Of a stretch of DNA of 64,000 nt, positions 1-26,176 are shown in pieces (position 1 is the first letter of the stretch; each line of letters begins with the position of its first letter). The stretch lies in the NCBI RefSeq assembly GCF_045037415.1, contig NZ_CP173438.1; one strand, 5' to 3'. The translations under genes were made by a program, and so were the position numbers. The notes beneath the pieces were generated by a model, which was not told the DNA's origin, did not search any database, and saw only the letters and a list, made by a program, of their open reading frames with translations. Source of the stretch: Escherichia coli. Lineage in GTDB: Bacteria > Pseudomonadota > Gammaproteobacteria > Enterobacterales > Enterobacteriaceae.

Positions 1-60
1 ATATTTCTTATATGAATGAGTACAAAAAGGCGGGGGAAACTTATCTGTGTAAAAACAGTG

Positions 61-240
61 GGTAGGCATGATAAGACGCGTCAGCGTCGCATCAGGCATC
101 TGCGCATGGTGTCGGATGCGGCGCGAGCGCCTTATCCGACCTACGGTTCAGGCCTGTAGGCATGATAAGACGCGTCAGCGTCGCATCAGGCATCTGCGCA
201 CGGTGTCGGATGCGGCGCGAGCGCCTTATCCGACCTACTC
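61..240. repeat. Tandemly duplicated REP/BIME element (two near-identical ~94 bp units containing GCCTGATAAGACGCGTCAGCGTCGCATCAGGC-type REP palindromes)
   Basis: Two almost identical copies visible at ~67-160 and ~161-240; REP consensus palindromes (gcctgatgcg / cgcatcaggc, cttatccgacctac); sits immediately 3' of prpE. Confidence 0.85.
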
Positions 241-2121
241 TTCCATCGCCTGGCGGATCTGATCCAACGACGCCGGATCATCAATGGTCGTCAGATCCCC
301 AGGATCGCGTCCTTCGCAAATCGCCTGGATCGTGCGGCGCAGCATTTTTCCGGATCGCGTTTTTGGCAATTGCGAGACAAACCAGACGTGCGCCGGGCGG
401 CCAAAGTTGCCAATCTGGCTGTCCACCAGCGCCATAATCGCCTTCTCTTGCGAGTGCGCCACCTCACGGTCTTCCAGACTGTCGCTCTCTTTCGGAATGA
501 CAAACGCCACCGCCACCTGCCCTTTCAGCGCATCTTTCACCCCAACCACCGCCACTTCGGCAACGCCCGGATGACTGGAGATACTCTCTTCAATCTCACG
601 CGTACCCAGCCGATGTCCGGCAACGTTAATCACATCGTCAGTGCGCCCGAGAATAAAGTGATAACCGTCAGCATCGCGGATGCCCCAGTCAAAAGTGGCG
701 TACACCGGACGGGAAAACAGCGACCAGTACGTCTTCACAAAGCGGTCGTCGTCGCCCCAGATGGTCTGAATACAGCCTGGCGGCAATGGCCCCTCCACTA
801 CCAGCATCCCTTTCTCATTGACGCCACACGGTTCGCCGGTGACTTCATTGAGCAACTGCACGTTATAGCCATACATCGGCACGCCGGGGCTTCCCAGACG
901 CGTCGGTCTGTCATCCAGACCGCGAGCAATCGCCATAATCGGCCAGCCGGATTCGGTCTGCCAGTAGTTGTCGATGACCGGCACATCCAGCGTATTGCTC
1001 ACCCAACTGGCGGTCGGCTCGTCCAGCGGTTCTCCAGCCAGATAGAGCACTTCCAGCGACGAAAGATCGTGTTTGCGAATTTCAGCGGTAGGGAATTTTT
1101 TCAGCACGCGAATGGCGGTCGGCGCTGAGAACATGCGGCTAACCTGATATTTCTCGACAATTTTCCACCACACGCCGCAGTCCGGCCAGGTCGGCAATCC
1201 TTCGTAAACGATAGTCGCCATCCCCGCCAGCAGCGGCGCGTAAACGATATACGAATGCCCTACCACCCAGCCGATATCCGAAGCACAAAAGAACACGCCG
1301 CCCGCTTTGCCGCCAAAAATGGTGTCCATCGAGGTCGCCAGCGCCACCGCATATCCGCCGACATCACGCTGCACACCTTTAGGTTTGCCGGTCGTGCCGG
1401 AGGTGTAGAGAATGCAGGAGGTTTCGTTGGATTCCAGCCATGCCACCGGCACCCGCGCGCCGATGTGCTGATGGCGCAACGACGCGAAATCGACATCCCG
1501 CCCGCTAACGCGCGCCATTTTCGCCAGCCCGCGATCCACCAGTAAAACGTGACGCGGCTGATGCTGTGCCTGACTTATCGCATCGTCGAGCAATTTTTTA
1601 TACGGAATGATTTTACCGCCGCGCGCCCCGGCATCAGCCGAGACAATCAGCACCGGTTTAGCGTCATCAATTCGCGCCGCCACGCTGTGCGAGGCAAAAC
1701 CCCCAAACACCACCGAGTGAATAGCACCAATGCGCGCGCAGGCCAGCAGGGTAATATGCGCTTCGGCAATCATCGGCATATACACCAGCACCCGATCGCC
1801 ACGCTGCACGCCCAGCGAGCGCAGCATTGACGCCACCGCATTCACTTCGTCATGCAGTTGGCGGAAGGTAAAGGTACGCTCTTCCTCTGTTTCCGAAGAG
1901 ACGGCAATCAATGCCAGCGCCTCTGGCTGTTTCTCCAGCCAGCGGTCGATAGCGTTGTGACACAAGTTGGTTCGGCCTTCACAAAACCAACGGGCAAACG
2001 GCGGGTTGCTGTGGTCGAGCGTTTGCGTAAAGGGCGTCTGCCAGTCAATACGCCGGGCCTGCTCGGCCCAGAACTGCTCCGGTTCGTTAATCGAACGCTG
2101 ATAAAATTCGCTAAAAGACAT
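235..2121 (-). CDS. prpE: Propionyl-CoA synthetase (acyl-CoA synthetase family)
   Basis: 628 aa ORF; AMP-binding signature YTSGTTGKPKGV seen; last gene of prpBCDE operon by synteny. Confidence 0.95.
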   Translation of the reverse strand: MSFSEFYQRSINEPEQFWAEQARRIDWQTPFTQTLDHSNPPFARWFCEGRTNLCHNAIDRWLEKQPEALALIAVSSETEEERTFTFRQLHDEVNAVASMLRSLGVQRGDRVLVYMPMIAEAHITLLACARIGAIHSVVFGGFASHSVAARIDDAKPVLIVSADAGARGGKIIPYKKLLDDAISQAQHQPRHVLLVDRGLAKMARVSGRDVDFASLRHQHIGARVPVAWLESNETSCILYTSGTTGKPKGVQRDVGGYAVALATSMDTIFGGKAGGVFFCASDIGWVVGHSYIVYAPLLAGMATIVYEGLPTWPDCGVWWKIVEKYQVSRMFSAPTAIRVLKKFPTAEIRKHDLSSLEVLYLAGEPLDEPTASWVSNTLDVPVIDNYWQTESGWPIMAIARGLDDRPTRLGSPGVPMYGYNVQLLNEVTGEPCGVNEKGMLVVEGPLPPGCIQTIWGDDDRFVKTYWSLFSRPVYATFDWGIRDADGYHFILGRTDDVINVAGHRLGTREIEESISSHPGVAEVAVVGVKDALKGQVAVAFVIPKESDSLEDREVAHSQEKAIMALVDSQIGNFGRPAHVWFVSQLPKTRSGKMLRRTIQAICEGRDPGDLTTIDDPASLDQIRQAMEE

Positions 2122-3645: not shown

Positions 3646-4815
3646 TTACTGGCGCTTATCCAGCGCGACAAACTGGCGGTCTTCCGGTCCAACATAATTG
3701 GCGGAAGGACGGATAATTTTGTTGTCCTGACGTTGTTCGATAATGTGCGCCGCCCAGCCAGTGACGCGGGCGATAACAAACAGTGGTGTGAATATCTCGG
3801 TGGGAACACCCATCATGTTGTAGGAAACAGCGGAGAACCAGTCGAGATTGGGGAACATCTTTTTGCTCTCCCACATCACTGTTTCCAGGCGATCGGCGAT
3901 GTTGTACATCTTCAGCGAGCCGCCTTCCTGCGAGAGCTGCTTTGCCACGCGTTTGATCACCTGGTGGCGCGGGTCGGCGATGGTATAAACCGGATGCCCA
4001 AAACCAATGACCACTTCTTTGTTTTCCACCCGCTTACGGATATCAGCTTCGGCTTCGTCCGGCGTTTCGTAGCGTTGCTGGATCTCCAGCGACACTTCAT
4101 TCGCTCCGCCGTGTTTCGGCCCGCGCAGTGCGCCAATCGCGCCAATAATGGCGGAATACATATCAGAGCCAGTGCCCGCAATCACCCGGCTGGTAAAGGT
4201 GGAAGCGTTAAACTCGTGTTCGGCGTACAGCACCAGCGAAATATGCATCGCCTTTTCCCAGCTTTGCGACGGCTTTTCGCCGTGCAGCAGATGCAGGAAG
4301 TGACCGCCGATAGAGTCGTCATCGGTTTCCGGCTGAATGCGTTCGCCGTTGTGGCTGTAGTGATACCAGTAGAGAAGAATCGAGCTAAGTGACGCCAGCA
4401 GTTTGTCGGCAATATCCCGTGCGCCAGAGACGGTATGCCCCTCTTTTTCTGGCAGCGTGCAGCCGAGCGCGGAAACGCCGGTGCGCATAACATCCATCGG
4501 GTGTGACGCCGCCGGTAAGGCTTCCAGCACGGTACGCACGTTAGCCGGTAAACCACGCAGGGCTTTCAGTTTCGTTTTGTAGGCGGCGAGTTCGTCACGG
4601 GTTGGCAGTTTGCCGTGGATCAGCAGATGCGCCACTTCTTCAAATTCACAATGTTCCGCCAGATCAAGAATATCGTAGCCACGGTAATGCAGGTCGTTGC
4701 CGCTTTTACCCACGGTGCAGAGCGCCGTATTGCCCGCCGGAACGCCGGAAAGTGCCACCGATTTTTTCGGTTTAATGACATGGGTACTGTTTTGCAGGAT
4801 CGTTGTGTCGCTCAT
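3646..4815 (-). CDS. prpC: 2-methylcitrate synthase (citrate synthase family)
   Basis: 389 aa ORF; citrate-synthase motif [10 protein letters not shown] seen; synteny. Confidence 0.95.
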
Positions 4816-4857
4816 ATTGTCCTCGTCATTGTTATCATTTGTAGGGTCGAGATTGTT

Positions 4858-4958
4858 GTCGGATGCGACGCTATGCGTCTTATCCGACCTACAGTTCAGT
4901 TCACCTCGTAGGCCTGATAAGTCGCGTCAGCGGCGCATCAGGCATCGGTTGTCGAATA
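4858..4958. repeat. REP/BIME element pair between prpC and prpB
   Basis: Inverted REP palindromes (tcggatgcgacgc...cttatccgacctac; gcctgataagtcgcgtcagcggcgcatcaggc) in the prpB-prpC intergenic gap. Confidence 0.85.
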
Positions 4959-4974
4959 CAACCAACGGGCGTTT

Positions 4975-5865
4975 TTATTTCACCTGACCACGGGCAAACA
5001 GGTCGTCGAGCTTCTCTTCGTACTGGTAGTAGTTGATGCTTTCGTACAGCTCGTTGCGGGTCTGCATGGTGTCGATGACGCTTTTCTGTGTGCCTTCCTG
5101 ACGCAGGATGTTGTAGACATGTTCAGCGGCGCGGTTCATGGCGCGAAACGCTGAAAGCGGGTAGAGCGCCATTGCGACATGGGCGCTGCGTAATTCGTCG
5201 GTGGTAAACAGCGGTGTTGCGCCAAATTCGGTAATGTTGGCGAGGATCGGTACCTGCACCGCATCGGCAAACTGGCGATACATGGCGAGTTCGGTAATCG
5301 CCTCCGGGAACAGCATTTCGGCACCCGCTTCAACATAGGCCTGCGCACGCTCGATCGCCGCATCCAGCCCCTCTACCGCCAGCGCATCGGTGCGCGCCAT
5401 GATCACAAAATCAGGATCGGTTTTCGCATCCACCGCCGCACGGATCCGATCCACCATTTCCTCTTTCGAGACGATCGCTTTGTTCGGGCGATGACCGCAG
5501 CGTTTCGCACCAACCTGATCTTCAATATGCAATCCTGCCGCACCGGCTTTAATCATCGATTTCACGGTGCGCGCCACGTTAAAAGCAGAAGAACCAAAAC
5601 CGATATCCGCATCCACCAGCAGCGGTAGCGAACAAACGTCGGTGATACGGCGAATGTCAGTCAGCACATCATCAAGAGTAGAAATACCGAGATCGGGCAG
5701 CCCCAGCGACCCTGCCGCCACGCCACCGCCGGAGAGATAAATCGCCTGATATCCGGCACGCTGCGCCAGCAGCGCATGGTTAGCGTTGATAGTGCCAACA
5801 ATCTGCAATGGATTTTCTTTAGTCAGTGCAGCGCGAAACGCTTTACCTGGAGAGTGTAGAGACAT
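4975..5865 (-). CDS. prpB: 2-methylisocitrate lyase (isocitrate lyase/PEP mutase family)
   Basis: 296 aa ORF; KRCGH active-site loop seen (GAKRCGHRP); first gene of prp operon; AAGGA RBS upstream. Confidence 0.95.
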
Positions 5866-6103: not shown

Positions 6104-7691
6104 ATGGCACATCCACCACGGCTGAATGACGACAAACCGGTTATCTGGACGGTATCTGTAACGCGCCTGTTCGAGCTGTTTCGCGATATCAGCCTCGAGT
6201 TTGATCACCTGGCGAATATCACCCCTATCCAGCTTGGCTTTGAAAAAGCGGTGACCTACATCCGCAAGAAACTGGCCAACGAACGGTGCGACGCCATCAT
6301 CGCTGCTGGCTCTAACGGCGCATATCTTAAAAGTCGCCTGTCAGTGCCAGTTATTTTGATTAAACCGAGCGGCTACGATGTGTTACAGGCACTGGCAAAA
6401 GCCGGAAAACTCACCTCTTCTATCGGTGTTGTCACCTATCAGGAAACCATTCCAGCGCTGGTGGCGTTTCAAAAGACCTTTAATTTGCGCCTCGACCAAC
6501 GTAGCTACATCACCGAAGAAGACGCCCGCGGGCAAATCAATGAGTTGAAAGCCAACGGCACCGAAGCGGTGGTCGGCGCAGGGCTGATTACCGATCTGGC
6601 AGAAGAAGCCGGAATGACCGGAATTTTTATCTATTCCGCCGCCACCGTGCGCCAGGCATTCAGCGATGCGCTGGATATGACGCGCATGTCGTTACGCCAT
6701 AACACTCACGATGCCACCCGCAACGCCCTGCGTACTCGTTACGTGCTGGGCGATATGCTCGGTCAATCACCACAGATGGAACAGGTGCGGCAGACTATTT
6801 TGCTGTATGCCCGCTCCAGTGCGGCGGTGTTGATTGAGGGGGAAACGGGGACGGGCAAAGAGCTGGCGGCCCAGGCGATTCATCGGGAATATTTTTCCCG
6901 CCACGATGCGCGACAGGGCAAAAAGTCACATCCGTTTGTTGCCGTTAACTGCGGGGCGATTGCCGAATCGCTGCTGGAAGCGGAGCTGTTTGGCTATGAG
7001 GAAGGGGCGTTTACCGGCTCGCGACGCGGAGGACGCGCCGGGCTGTTTGAAATCGCCCACGGTGGTACGCTGTTTCTTGACGAGATAGGCGAAATGCCGC
7101 TGCCGTTGCAGACTCGGCTGCTGCGGGTGCTGGAAGAAAAAGAGGTCACCCGCGTCGGCGGGCATCAGCCTGTTCCGGTGGATGTGCGGGTCATTAGCGC
7201 CACTCACTGCAATCTGGAAGAAGATATGCAGCAAGGGCAGTTTCGCCGTGACCTGTTTTATCGGCTGAGTATTTTGCGTCTACAACTGCCGCCGCTACGC
7301 GAGCGGGTGGCGGATATTCTGCCGCTGGCGGAAAGCTTTTTGAAAATGTCTCTGGCGGCACTCTCTGTCCCTTTTTCTGCCGCATTACGTCAGGGATTAG
7401 AGAACCTGTCAGATTCTATTATTGCACTACGACTGGCCGGGCAATATTCGTGAACTGCGCAATATGATGGAACGACTGGCGCTGTTTTTAAGTGTGGAAT
7501 CGACGCCGGATTTAACGCCGCAATTTTTGCAGCTGCTACTGCCGGAACTGGCGCGCGAGTCGGCGAAGACTCCCATTCCAGGCTTGCTGACAGCACAACA
7601 GGCACTGGAGAAATTTAATGGCGATAAAACAGCAGCGGCGAATTATTTAGGTATCAGCCGGACGACGTTCTGGCGGCGGCTGAAAAGCTGA
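6104..7691 (+). pseudogene. prpR: Sigma-54-dependent propionate regulator PrpR, reading frame interrupted by a +1 frameshift near 7405-7422 (pseudogene or sequencing indel)
   Basis: Frame 1 ORF (to 7453) has Walker A GETGTGKE and GAFTGS; the C-terminal [17 protein letters not shown] and Fis-type HTH (AAANYLGISRTTFWRRL) continue in the +1 frame (7422-7691); intact PrpR is ~528 aa. Confidence 0.8.
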
Positions 7692-13577: not shown

Positions 13578-13680
13578 ACGCCAGACTGCCTGATGCGCTA
13601 CGCTTATCAGGCCTACAATTCTCGTGCCACTCGTAGGCCGGATAAGGCGTTCACGCCGCATCCGGCAGAGACAACGCGTA
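13578..13680. repeat. REP/BIME element pair between yahI and yahG
   Basis: gcctgatgcgctacgcttatcaggcctac and gtaggccggataaggcgttcacgccgcatccggc REP palindromes. Confidence 0.85.
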
Positions 13681-24699: not shown

Positions 24700-26176
24700 G
24701 TGATGTCCCGAATGGCAGAACAGCAGCTTTATATACATGGTGGTTATACCTCCGCCACCAGCGGTCGCACCTTCGAGACCATTAACCCGGCCAACGGTAA
24801 CGTGCTGGCGACCGTGCAGGCCGCCGGGCGTGAGGATGTCGATCGCGCCGTGAAGAGTGCCCAACAAGGGCAAAAAATCTGGGCGGCGATGACCGCTATG
24901 GAGCGCTCGCGTATTCTGCGTCGGGCCGTTGATATTCTGCGTGAACGCAATGACGAACTCGCAAAACTGGAAACCCTTGACACCGGAAAAGCATATTCGG
25001 AAACCTCAACCGTCGATATCGTTACCGGTGCGGACGTGCTGGAGTACTATGCCGGGCTGATCCCGGCGCTGGAAGGCAGCCAGATCCCGTTGCGTGAGAC
25101 GTCATTTGTTTATACCCGCCGCGAACCGCTGGGTGTGGTGGCGGGGATTGGCGCATGGAACTACCCGATCCAGATTGCTTTGTGGAAATCCGCCCCAGCG
25201 CTGGCGGCAGGCAATGCAATGATTTTCAAACCGAGCGAAGTCACCCCGCTTACCGCGTTAAAGCTGGCCGAAATTTACAGCGAAGCGGGCCTGCCGGACG
25301 GCGTATTTAACGTGTTGCCGGGCGTGGGCGCGGAGAACCGGACAATATCTGACCGATCATCCGGGCATTGCCAAAGTGTCATTTACCGGCGGTGTCGCCA
25401 GCGGCAAAAAAGTGATGGCTAACTCGGCAGCTTCCTCCCTGAAAGAAGTGACCATGGAGCTGGGCGGTAAATCACCGCTGATCGTTTTCGACGATGCGGA
25501 TCTCGATCTCGCCGCCGATATCGCCATGATGGCGAATTTCTTCAGCTCCGGTCAGGTGTGTACCAACGGCACTCGCGTCTTCGTTCCGACGAAATGCAAA
25601 GCCGCATTTGAACAAAAGGTTCTGGCGCGCGTTGAGCGCATTCGCGCGGGCGACGTTTTCGATCCGCAAACTAACTTCGGCCCGCTGGTCAGCTTCCCGC
25701 ATCGCGATAACGTGCTGCGCTATATCGCCAAAGGCAAAGAGGAAGGCGCGCGCGTACTGTGCGGCGGCAATGTACTGAAGGGGGATAGCTTCGATAACGG
25801 CGCATGGGTTGCACCGACCGTGTTCACCGATTGCAGCGACGATATGACCATTGTGCGAGAAGAGATTTTCGGGCCAGTGATGTCCATTCTGATCTACGAG
25901 TCGGAAGACGAAGTCATTCGCCGCGCTAACGATACCGACTACGGTCTGGCGGCGGGTATCGTGACGGCGGACCTGAACCTCGCGCATCGCGTCATTCATC
26001 AGCTGGAAGCGGGTATTTGCTGGATCAACACCTGGGGCGAATCCCCGGCAGAGATGCCCGTTGGCGGCTACAAACACTCCGGCATTGGTCGCGAGAACGG
26101 CGTGATGACGCTCCAGAGTTACACCCAGGTGAAGTCCATCCAGGTTGAGATGGCTAAATTCCAGTCCATATTCTAA
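24700..26176 (+). pseudogene. betB: Betaine aldehyde dehydrogenase, reading frame broken by a single-base insertion (extra A at ~25336-25337); pseudogene or sequencing indel
   Basis: Frame 1 reads ...LPGVGAEN then garbage to a stop at 25422; deleting one A from gagAAcc restores ...[28 protein letters not shown]... continuous with ORF 25376-26176; intact BetB is ~490 aa. Confidence 0.8.

What the first reader, a model, noticed from the sequence alone, without database searches (positions are those of the whole stretch)
61..240. Tandem duplication of a BIME/REP unit at the 3' end of prpE
Two ~94 bp near-identical units sit head to tail with a single visible substitution. REP arrays vary in copy number between strains and can drive rearrangements or mRNA stabilisation.
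Basis: seen in the sequence. Interest (0 to 1): 0.2.

Follow-up and report, generated by a model that had tools for sequence, protein, structure and literature searches.

The report
Two-unit REP (BIME-2) array after prpE
This is an ordinary E. coli repetitive extragenic palindrome cluster (a BIME-2 array of four REP hairpins) sitting right after the prpE gene, and the two-unit form seen here is one allele of a site that holds about one to nine units in different strains.

Summary
Window 62-238 holds 1.9 head-to-tail copies of a 94-bp unit. The shared 83 nt differ at one base, T107 versus C201.

Each unit is a Z2-type REP, a 13-nt linker and an inverted Y-type REP. An 11-nt linker joins the two units. 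This is a textbook BIME-2 array of four REPs.

The array fills the gap between prpE (minus strand, 235-2121) and the codB upstream region. The tail of the last Y REP (CCTAC, 234-238) contains the prpE stop codon, so a REP hairpin starts directly after UAG on the mRNA.

Each unit also matches Rfam naRNA4, which is itself a BIME-2 unit.

Across E. coli complete genomes the site is a copy-number polymorphism:
- about 1 unit in 12 of 60 sampled genomes;
- 2 units in 27 of 60, including all 12 sampled near-identical (≥99%) genomes, which carry the window allele;
- 3 to 9 units in the rest, for example 8 in O157:H7;
- IS621 inserted into the array in a few percent.

The element type, its variability and its proposed roles are all already published, so interest is low.

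The parts
62..97 (-). Z2-type REP number 1. It reads GTAGGCATGATAAG... on the + strand and GCCTGATGCGACGCTGACGCGTCTTATCATGCCTAC on the - strand.
   Evidence: Regex scan; 34/36 identity to the Z2 reference against 28/36 to Z1 and 27/36 to Y; folds as an imperfect hairpin with a 4-nt CTAC foot.
98..110 (.). 13-nt head-to-head linker ATCTGCGCATGGT; carries the only inter-unit difference (T107).
   Evidence: the same linker recurs at 192-204.
111..144 (+). Y-type REP number 1, GTCGGATGCGGCGCGAGCGCCTTATCCGACCTAC.
   Evidence: 29/34 identity to the Y reference against 24/34 to Z1 and 27/36 to Z2; hairpin with an internal mismatch, -9.7 kcal/mol as DNA.
145..155 (.). 11-nt tail-to-tail linker GGTTCAGGCCT joining unit 1 to unit 2. 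It is present only in alleles with two or more units.
   Evidence: It is absent from the NC101 one-unit allele and repeated between every unit of the 8- and 9-unit arrays.
156..191 (-). Z2-type REP number 2, identical to number 1.
192..204 (.). 13-nt head-to-head linker ATCTGCGCACGGT (C201).
205..238 (+). Y-type REP number 2, identical to number 1. Its CCTAC tail (234-238) contains the complement of the prpE stop codon TAG (235-237) and one base of the last Glu codon.
   Evidence: On the mRNA strand the hairpin (-17.4 kcal/mol) starts at the nucleotide after UAG.
235..2121 (-). prpE (propionate--CoA ligase) coding sequence, 628 aa, ending ...DQIRQAMEE*.
   Evidence: ORF list; translation; RefSeq annotation of the identical SK1144 locus.
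159..235 (-). Match to Rfam RF02564 naRNA4 (Y-linker-Z2 two-hairpin unit), on the prpE-transcribed strand.
   Evidence: 70.2 bits against a gathering score of 59.5, model positions 1-77 of 77.
65..141 (-). Second match to Rfam RF02564 naRNA4.
   Evidence: 68.3 bits against a gathering score of 59.5.
1..61 (-). Unique DNA between the array and codB (the upstream, 5' side of codB). The codB start codon lies about 90 nt to the left of the window start.
   Evidence: Annotation of the identical SK1144 locus and of K-12; intergenic sequences.

Best explanation
Window 62-238 is a BIME-2 array: four repetitive extragenic palindromes in the order Z2-Y-Z2-Y with alternating orientation, forming two 94-bp units, in the prpE-codB intergenic region of a B2-like E. 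coli chromosome.

Shown here: the REP types, their hairpins and GTAG feet, the unit structure, the overlap of the last REP with the prpE stop codon, and that the site is a copy-number polymorphism of about 1 to 9 units across E. coli and is also present in E. whittamii.

Inferred: units are gained and lost by slipped-strand mispairing or unequal homologous exchange between the near-identical 94-bp units, possibly helped by the REP-associated transposase TnpA-REP. This keeps units within one strain more alike than orthologous units between strains. The window allele is a two-unit state made of 'internal-type' units.

Inferred from published work on REPs, not tested here: when prpBCDE is transcribed, the array is copied onto the 3' end of the mRNA as stable hairpins. 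These should block 3' exonucleases. Because the first stem begins directly after UAG, they may also slow termination and lower PrpE yield, the effect described for REPs within 15 nt of a stop codon. As double-stranded DNA the Y REPs are likely DNA gyrase sites between the prp and cod transcription units.
For: The repeat is real and unique in the window.

REP typing gives Z2 34/36 and Y 29/34 against published reference REPs, with lower identity to the other types. Orientation alternates and the feet are GTAG/CTAC. Each REP folds as an imperfect hairpin with z about -3.

The published definition of BIME-2 is z2 plus y REPs in tandem copies with short linkers and a copy number that varies between strains at a given locus (PMC3333891).

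Both units match Rfam naRNA4, a Y-linker-Z2 unit, above the gathering score (PMC4550694).

Locus context is prpE, then the array, then codB.

Allele series:
- NC101 has 1 unit; the window and SK1144 have 2.
- K-12 has about 2 units, the prpE-side one ending in a degenerate hairpin.
- O157:H7 has about 8 units and SCAID WND2 about 9.
- In a 60-genome systematic sample, inserts of 90, 178-192, 278, 371, 465, 652, 747-754 and 839 nt follow a 94-nt ladder.

Units are 98.8% identical within the window but 77.5% within K-12, and 95-96% between the window units and K-12 unit 1. This fits local homogenisation.

E. whittamii has the same array type at the same site.

Literature on function: gyrase cleavage is enriched in BIME-2, mostly in y REPs (PMC6379681). 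REPs 15 nt or less from a stop codon stall ribosomes and lower translation (Liang et al. 2015 as summarised in PMC12306157).
Against: No expression, RNA 3'-end, gyrase or translation data for this locus were available. Searches of the gyrase-mapping supplements for prpE and codB found nothing.

A copy number ranging from 1 to 9 with no obvious constraint argues that any local function is insensitive to unit number, or absent.

The minimum-energy fold of the whole array pairs distant REPs with each other rather than forming four local hairpins. The structure in vivo is therefore uncertain.

The named S and s linker consensus sequences of BIME-2 could not be retrieved, so linker identity was not checked.
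Confidence: 0.85

Rival explanations
1. The array is a neutral passenger. It is a selfish or slippage-prone repeat that persists in a permissive intergenic gap and has no selected effect on prpE, codB or chromosome topology.
For: Copy number ranges from about 1 to about 9 units among otherwise closely similar loci. IS621 insertions into the array are tolerated in several strains. No intrinsic terminator or promoter consensus lies in or next to the array.
Against: A hairpin immediately after the prpE stop codon is kept in every allele examined, including the shortest and the E. whittamii one. Published experiments assign activities to REPs in this position and to BIME-2. Neither point proves selection at this site.
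Confidence: 0.3
2. The unit number was changed by the REP-associated tyrosine transposase (TnpA-REP/RAYT), which cleaves and rejoins single-stranded BIMEs, rather than by replication slippage or RecA-type unequal exchange.
For: TnpA-REP binds REPs through GTAG and the stem mismatch. It cleaves at CC|T sites in the inverted REP, including within CTAC, and catalyses strand exchange between BIMEs in vitro. The authors proposed this as the source of BIME-2 copy-number variation (PMC3333891). All four REPs here have the GTAG foot and a stem mismatch. The array ends exactly at CCTAC next to prpE.
Against: 94-bp units that are 99% identical are good substrates for ordinary slippage or homologous exchange, which needs no special enzyme. 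No tnpA-REP gene was looked for or seen in the window. There is no in vivo evidence at this locus.
Confidence: 0.2
3. The two units are genes for naRNA4-like nucleoid-associated small RNAs that act with HU to bridge cruciforms and condense the nucleoid.
For: Both units match Rfam RF02564 over the full 77-nt model, above the gathering score, on the strand transcribed from prpE. In the naRNA4 study about 80% of REPs are transcribed, and the activity required an RNA with two hairpins such as Y and Z2 (PMC4550694).
Against: The Rfam model is in effect a generic BIME-2 unit, so the match restates the REP typing. naRNA4 itself comes from REP325 between yjdM and yjdN, a different locus. Transcription here would depend on the propionate-induced prp operon. 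No promoter consensus lies nearby.
Confidence: 0.1
4. The repeat is an assembly or sequencing artefact, that is, a collapsed or duplicated read region.
For: The window's source assembly does contain two suspicious single-base insertions elsewhere.
Against: The same 640 bp occurs at 100% identity in several independent complete genomes. The same 178-nt insert occurs in 12 of 60 sampled genomes, including ATCC 25922 and UM146.
Confidence: 0.01
5. The array is the Rho-independent terminator of the prpBCDE operon.
For: It lies directly after the last gene of the operon and forms GC-rich hairpins. A short U run (CCCACUGUUUUUA) follows the last Z2 hairpin on the mRNA strand.
Against: The terminator scan found no stem-plus-T-run site on the prpE strand in this region. 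The U run starts about 7 nt after the stem and none of the other three hairpins has one.
Confidence: 0.1

Closest known systems
BIME-2 (bacterial interspersed mosaic element, family 2) of E. coli
   Same: Alternating y and z2 REPs, short linkers, tandem units, intergenic position at the 3' end of a transcription unit, and a copy number that differs between strains at the same locus.
   Different: Nothing essential differs. The Z2 copies here carry ATCATGCCTAC instead of the usual ATCAGGCCTAC tail. The Y copies carry a compensated C-G to T-A change in the outer stem (GTCGG...CCGAC). The last REP overlaps the prpE stop codon by 4 nt.
REP325 / naRNA4 (Rfam RF02564)
   Same: The same Y-linker-Z2 two-hairpin unit in tandem copies, transcribed from the upstream gene. 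Both window units score above the Rfam gathering threshold.
   Different: The locus differs (yjdM-yjdN against prpE-codB), REP325 has six units and the linkers differ. HU binding and nucleoid effects are shown only for REP325 RNA.
REPs within 15 nt of a stop codon (translation-damping REPs, Liang, Rudd and Deutscher 2015)
   Same: The hairpin begins directly after the prpE stop codon, well inside the 15-nt limit (summary in PMC12306157).
   Different: The effect has not been measured for prpE. I could not read the original paper to see whether prpE is on its list.
BIME-1 (RIB/RIP elements with an IHF site)
   Same: Also a pair of inverted REPs, one of them of y type.
   Different: BIME-1 uses z1 rather than z2, has a long conserved L linker with an IHF site, and occurs as a single copy. 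Here the REP is z2, the linker is 13 nt and the units are tandem.

Membership tests
E. coli REP | Imperfect palindrome of 30-40 nt with the conserved tetranucleotide GTAG (CTAC on the other strand) at the foot. | tested here: met
   Four elements of 34-36 nt, each ending in CCTAC, each folding as a hairpin with the last 4 nt unpaired; definition from PMC3333891.
E. coli REP | Non-complementary base(s) inside the stem. | tested here: met
   The MFE folds of both types show an internal mismatch between the outer and inner stems.
E. coli REP | Extragenic location. | tested here: met
   173 of the array's 177 nt lie outside any annotated gene. The last 4 nt (235-238) overlap the prpE stop codon and one base of the final Glu codon.
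BIME-2 | Built of y and z2 REPs, not z1. | tested here: met
   Z-like copy: 34/36 to Z2 against 28/36 to Z1. Y-like copy: 29/34 to Y. Reference sequences are those quoted in PMC11208160.
BIME-2 | [quoted passage not shown] | tested here: met
   Strands are -, +, -, + at 62-97, 111-144, 156-191 and 205-238.
BIME-2 | Short S linker between the REP and the inverted REP, and one of the s, l or r motifs between units. | tested here: inconclusive
   The linkers are short (13 and 11 nt), as required, and constant across units and strains. The published S, s, l and r consensus sequences could not be retrieved, so identity to them was not checked.
BIME-2 | Occurs as multiple tandem copies whose number varies between strains at a given locus. 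| tested here: met
   1.9 copies here. About 1 to 9 units in other E. coli, on a 94-nt ladder.
BIME-2 | Bound and cleaved by DNA gyrase, mainly in y REPs. | not testable with these tools
   Literature only (PMC6379681). prpE and codB are not mentioned in that paper's held supplements.
BIME-1 | z1 plus y REPs separated by a long L linker with an IHF site; single copy. | tested here: not met
   The REP is z2, the linker is 13 nt and the units are tandem.
naRNA4 (Rfam RF02564) | Sequence and structure match to the covariance model at or above the gathering score. | tested here: met
   70.2 and 68.3 bits against 59.5, full-length, minus strand.
naRNA4 (Rfam RF02564) | Discrete transcript that binds HU and condenses DNA; derived from REP325 (yjdM-yjdN). 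| not testable with these tools
   Expression and HU binding need experiments. The locus here is prpE-codB, not REP325.
Intrinsic (Rho-independent) terminator | GC-rich stem directly followed by a U run. | tested here: not met
   No such site on the prpE strand in the intergenic region.
IS621 natural target site | 11-nt target ATCAGGCCTAC in a REP tail. | tested here: not met
   Both Z2 tails in the window read ATCATGCCTAC, one mismatch. Strains with ATCAGGCCTAC in the first Z2 REP do carry IS621 there.

The most novel reading that the evidence does not exclude
The number of BIME-2 units after prpE, together with the REP hairpin that begins at the stop codon, might act as a heritable, slippage-driven dial. 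Different E. coli lineages (1, 2, 3, 8 or 9 units) would then have different PrpE yields, different prp mRNA stability or different read-through into codBA. That would make it a contingency-like tandem repeat in a metabolic operon rather than neutral junk.
Probability: 0.06. Interest if true: 0.4.

Novelty: already known. Interest (0 to 1): 0.1.

Why it matters
It matters little beyond correct annotation. BIME-2 arrays, their strain-to-strain copy-number variation, gyrase binding, mRNA 3'-end effects and their use as IS targets have been described since the 1990s. This check adds three things. It maps the alleles at this one site: a 94-nt ladder from about 1 to about 9 units, with a B2-type allele in which an intact Y REP supplies the prpE stop codon. 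It shows that the one-unit allele is most simply a deletion derivative of a longer array. It notes that the site is a recurrent or inherited IS621 insertion point. The locus could serve as a cheap typing marker, or as a natural allele series for testing the idea that REPs close to stop codons damp translation.

Tried and rejected
1. Assembly artefact: rejected, because the sequence is identical in many independent complete genomes.

2. Intrinsic terminator or promoter inside the array: the consensus scan found none on the relevant strand.

3. BIME-1/IHF element: rejected on REP type and linker length.

4. Simple duplication of an NC101-like single unit: rejected, because the 11-nt inter-unit linker is absent from one-unit alleles.

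5. Literature specific to the prpE-codB REP: a full-text search gave nothing relevant. The gyrase-mapping supplements do not mention prpE or codB. The supplements of the TnpA-REP paper are not held. The Liang 2015 paper is not held.

6. Outgroup scan of genome contigs with a degenerate pattern for the PrpE C-terminus: only 4 loci were returned. Two were useful: E. whittamii, and a divergent strain labelled E. coli. One is a 'Citrobacter' MAG that looks E. coli-like. One is a chance hit in a Spirochaetales MAG. No Salmonella or Citrobacter comparison was obtained, so the age of the array beyond Escherichia is unknown.

A 60-row systematic sample was used instead.

Full report
**1. Observation**

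The window begins about 90 nt from the codB start codon and runs into prpE on the minus strand. Tandem Repeats Finder reports a single array at 62-238 with period 94, 1.9 copies, 98% matches, no indels and score 347. It is the only tandem array in the 64-kb window. The repeat finder returns the same pair at a spacing of 94. Comparing 62-144 with 156-238 base by base gives 82 of 83 identical; the one difference is T107 versus C201. Minor corrections apply: the second copy is 83 nt because it lacks the 11-nt inter-unit linker, and the array ends at 238 inside the last codons of prpE. The same 640 bp is found at 100% identity in several independent complete genomes, so it is not an assembly error.

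**2. Anatomy**

A pattern scan finds four REPs:
- 62-97 on the minus strand and 111-144 on the plus strand;
- 156-191 on the minus strand and 205-238 on the plus strand.

The minus-strand copies read GCCTGATGCGACGCTGACGCGTCTTATCATGCCTAC. They are 34/36 identical to the published Z2 reference, against 28/36 to Z1 and 27/36 to Y. The plus-strand copies read GTCGGATGCGGCGCGAGCGCCTTATCCGACCTAC. They are 29/34 identical to the Y reference, against 24/34 to Z1 and 27/36 to Z2 (references as quoted in PMC11208160).

Each REP folds as an imperfect hairpin with an internal mismatch and an unpaired CTAC foot. Between the heads of a pair lies a 13-nt linker (98-110, 192-204). Between the tails of neighbouring pairs lies the 11-nt GGTTCAGGCCT (145-155).

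This matches the published definition of BIME-2: z2 and y REPs in inverse orientation, short linkers, tandem copies, and a copy number that varies between strains at a locus (PMC3333891). I could not retrieve the named S, s, l and r linker consensus sequences, so that one feature stays unchecked.

**3. Context**

prpE occupies 235-2121 on the minus strand and ends ...DQIRQAMEE*. The stop codon TAG is the complement of 235-237, which lies inside the CCTAC tail of the last Y REP. Base 238 belongs to the last Glu codon.

RefSeq annotation of the identical SK1144 locus and of K-12 shows codB next, in the same direction as prpE. The array therefore lies between the end of the prpBCDE operon and the codBA upstream region.

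On the prpE mRNA strand the first hairpin (-17.4 kcal/mol) begins at the nucleotide after UAG. One whole unit can alternatively fold as a long Y:Z2 hairpin (-39.8 kcal/mol). The whole array folds at -99.2 kcal/mol with z = -5.1.

No intrinsic-terminator or sigma-70 consensus was found on the relevant strand.

**4. Rfam**

Both units match RF02564 naRNA4 over the full 77-nt model on the minus strand, at 70.2 and 68.3 bits against a gathering score of 59.5. naRNA4 is one Y-linker-Z2 unit of REP325, a six-unit array between yjdM and yjdN (PMC4550694). The match therefore restates that these are BIME-2 units. It does not show that this locus makes a functional small RNA.

**5. Comparison across genomes**

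Ten loci were fetched from E. coli complete genomes and dissected. They form an allele series:

| Strain | Array content |
|---|---|
| NC101 | one unit (Z2 + Y) |
| window and SK1144 | two units |
| K-12 | about two units; the prpE-side Y is replaced by a degenerate perfect hairpin (GCCGGATGCACCGCGCGACGCATCCGACAATAACCTAC) |
| MEI005, ETEC4077 | one Z2 REP plus that hairpin |
| A28, ACN001 | three REPs plus the hairpin |
| O157:H7 F3113 | 15 REPs plus the hairpin (about 8 units) |
| SCAID WND2 | 17 REPs plus the hairpin (about 9 units) |

A query made only of the two flanks (700 + 700 nt) was then run with a 60-row systematic sample of 5,233 matching records. The insert lengths fall on a 94-nt ladder:

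| Insert (nt) | Units | Sampled genomes |
|---|---|---|
| about 90-96 | 1 | 12 |
| 178 (window allele) | 2 | 12 |
| 183-192 (K-12 type) | 2 | 15 |
| about 278 | 3 | 6 |
| 371 | 4 | 1 |
| 465 | 5 | 1 |
| 652 | 7 | 1 |
| 747-754 | 8 | 5 |
| 839 | 9 | 1 |

Six rows were irregular. The 12 window-allele genomes are all the sampled genomes with at least 99% flank identity, among them ATCC 25922 and UM146. In 4,905 of 5,426 genomes the two flanks lie within joining distance.

**6. Direction and mechanism of change**

The one-unit allele contains no copy of the 11-nt tail-to-tail linker. A two-unit allele therefore cannot arise from it by plain duplication, while a precise 94-bp deletion between direct repeats gives the one-unit allele from a longer one.

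Units within the window are 98.8% identical, whereas the two K-12 units are 77.5% identical. The window units are 95-96% identical to K-12 unit 1. Both window units resemble the internal units of the long arrays.

This pattern fits repeated expansion and contraction with local homogenisation, by replication slippage or unequal homologous exchange. That is an inference. TnpA-REP-mediated cleavage and strand exchange, shown in vitro and proposed for exactly this kind of variation, remains a possible contributor.

An outgroup scan gave few loci. E. whittamii carries the degenerate hairpin plus 2.5 units at the same site. A divergent strain labelled E. coli carries a different BIME-2 array, with a period of about 100 nt, a longer tail linker and a Z2 REP first. 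On parsimony, then, the array predates E. coli, and the hairpin-ended form is probably older than the B2-type end with an intact Y REP.

**7. Likely function**

All of this is inferred from the literature; none was tested here.
- REP hairpins at mRNA 3' ends protect against exonucleases.
- REPs within 15 nt of a stop codon stall terminating ribosomes and lower expression (Liang et al. 2015 as summarised in PMC12306157). Here the spacing is zero.
- BIME-2, especially y REPs, are preferred gyrase cleavage sites independent of transcription (PMC6379681).

The free variation in unit number argues that any such role does not depend on copy number, or that the array is largely neutral.

**8. Verdict**

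The element belongs to a long-known family and behaves as that family is known to behave. Interest is low.

**9. Seen in passing**

- IS621 sits in the first Z2 REP of this array in CH423, XH988 and strain 'numer 3', at GTAG|GCCTGAT. This is its known target ATCAGGC|CTAC.
- The window's Z2 tails read ATCATGCCTAC, one mismatch from that target.
- The window differs from SK1144 by only eight positions in 50 kb. Both indels are an extra A that turns GAGACC into GAGAACC, one in prpR and one in betB. This looks like a motif-linked base-calling error rather than two real frameshifts.

Noticed in passing
L009 1-1525 of the intergenic segment (CH423); L016 and L017 about 4200-5600 (XH988, 'numer 3'): An IS621 (IS110-family, bridge-RNA recombinase) copy is inserted into the codB-proximal Z2 REP of this same array, at GTAG|IS621|GCCTGAT. 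This is the known target ATCAGGC|CTAC. 3 of 60 sampled genomes had split flanks; the two inspected (H97, H99) both carry IS621. About 6% of matching records do not join the two flanks. The window's Z2 tails (ATCATGCCTAC) are one mismatch off the target.
   Followed up: partly
window 7403 (prpR) and 25336 (betB): Compared with SK1144 (99.984% identical over 50 kb), the window has exactly two indels. Both are an extra A that converts GAGACC to GAGAACC. They truncate prpR (ORF ends at 7453) and split betB (24700-25422 / 25376-26176). The shared motif (the BsaI/Eco31I site) suggests a motif-linked base-calling error, for example at a methylated site, rather than real pseudogenes. Only 2 of 5,117 genomes share the prpR variant.
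   Followed up: partly
L018 157-187 of the intergenic segment (strain BS-04): A run of 31 T sits exactly at the IS621 insertion point in the first REP (GGGTAG-T31-GCCTGATAAG). It may be an assembly artefact of an IS-containing allele.
   Followed up: no
window 4858-4950: A second REP pair (Y-like on the plus strand at 4858-4892, Z2-like on the minus strand at 4908-4950, tail to tail) lies in the prpC-prpB intergenic gap, inside the prp operon.
   Followed up: no
window 13603-13675: Another REP pair lies between yahI and yahG. It has a Y-type REP matching the canonical GCCGGATGCGGCGTGAACGCCTTATCCGGCCTAC on the minus strand and a CTTATC...CCTAC tail at 13603.
   Followed up: no
L004, L007, L008, L009, L016: codB-side edge of the array: Several alleles carry a 7-nt direct duplication GTGGGTAGTGGGTAG at the array edge. 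All inspected IS621-bearing alleles have it, and so do some without the IS (A28, ETEC4077, SCAID).
   Followed up: no
L012 (E. coli SCPM-O-B-8794, a GTDB species representative), downstream of prpE: At the same site this genome has a different BIME-2 array: a period of about 99-101 nt, a longer tail-to-tail linker, a Z2 REP first after a TAA stop, and nine REPs. The locus has therefore been re-populated or remodelled in a divergent Escherichia lineage.
   Followed up: partly
window 7340-7470 (3' part of prpR): This prpR segment falls into two deep allele classes across E. coli: about 640 genomes at 95% identity or more to the window and about 4,475 at only 80-90%. That is far more divergent than the prpE and codB flanks (96-97%).
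   Followed up: no
L010 (strain ACN001): prpE is annotated as a frameshifted pseudogene in this strain.
   Followed up: no
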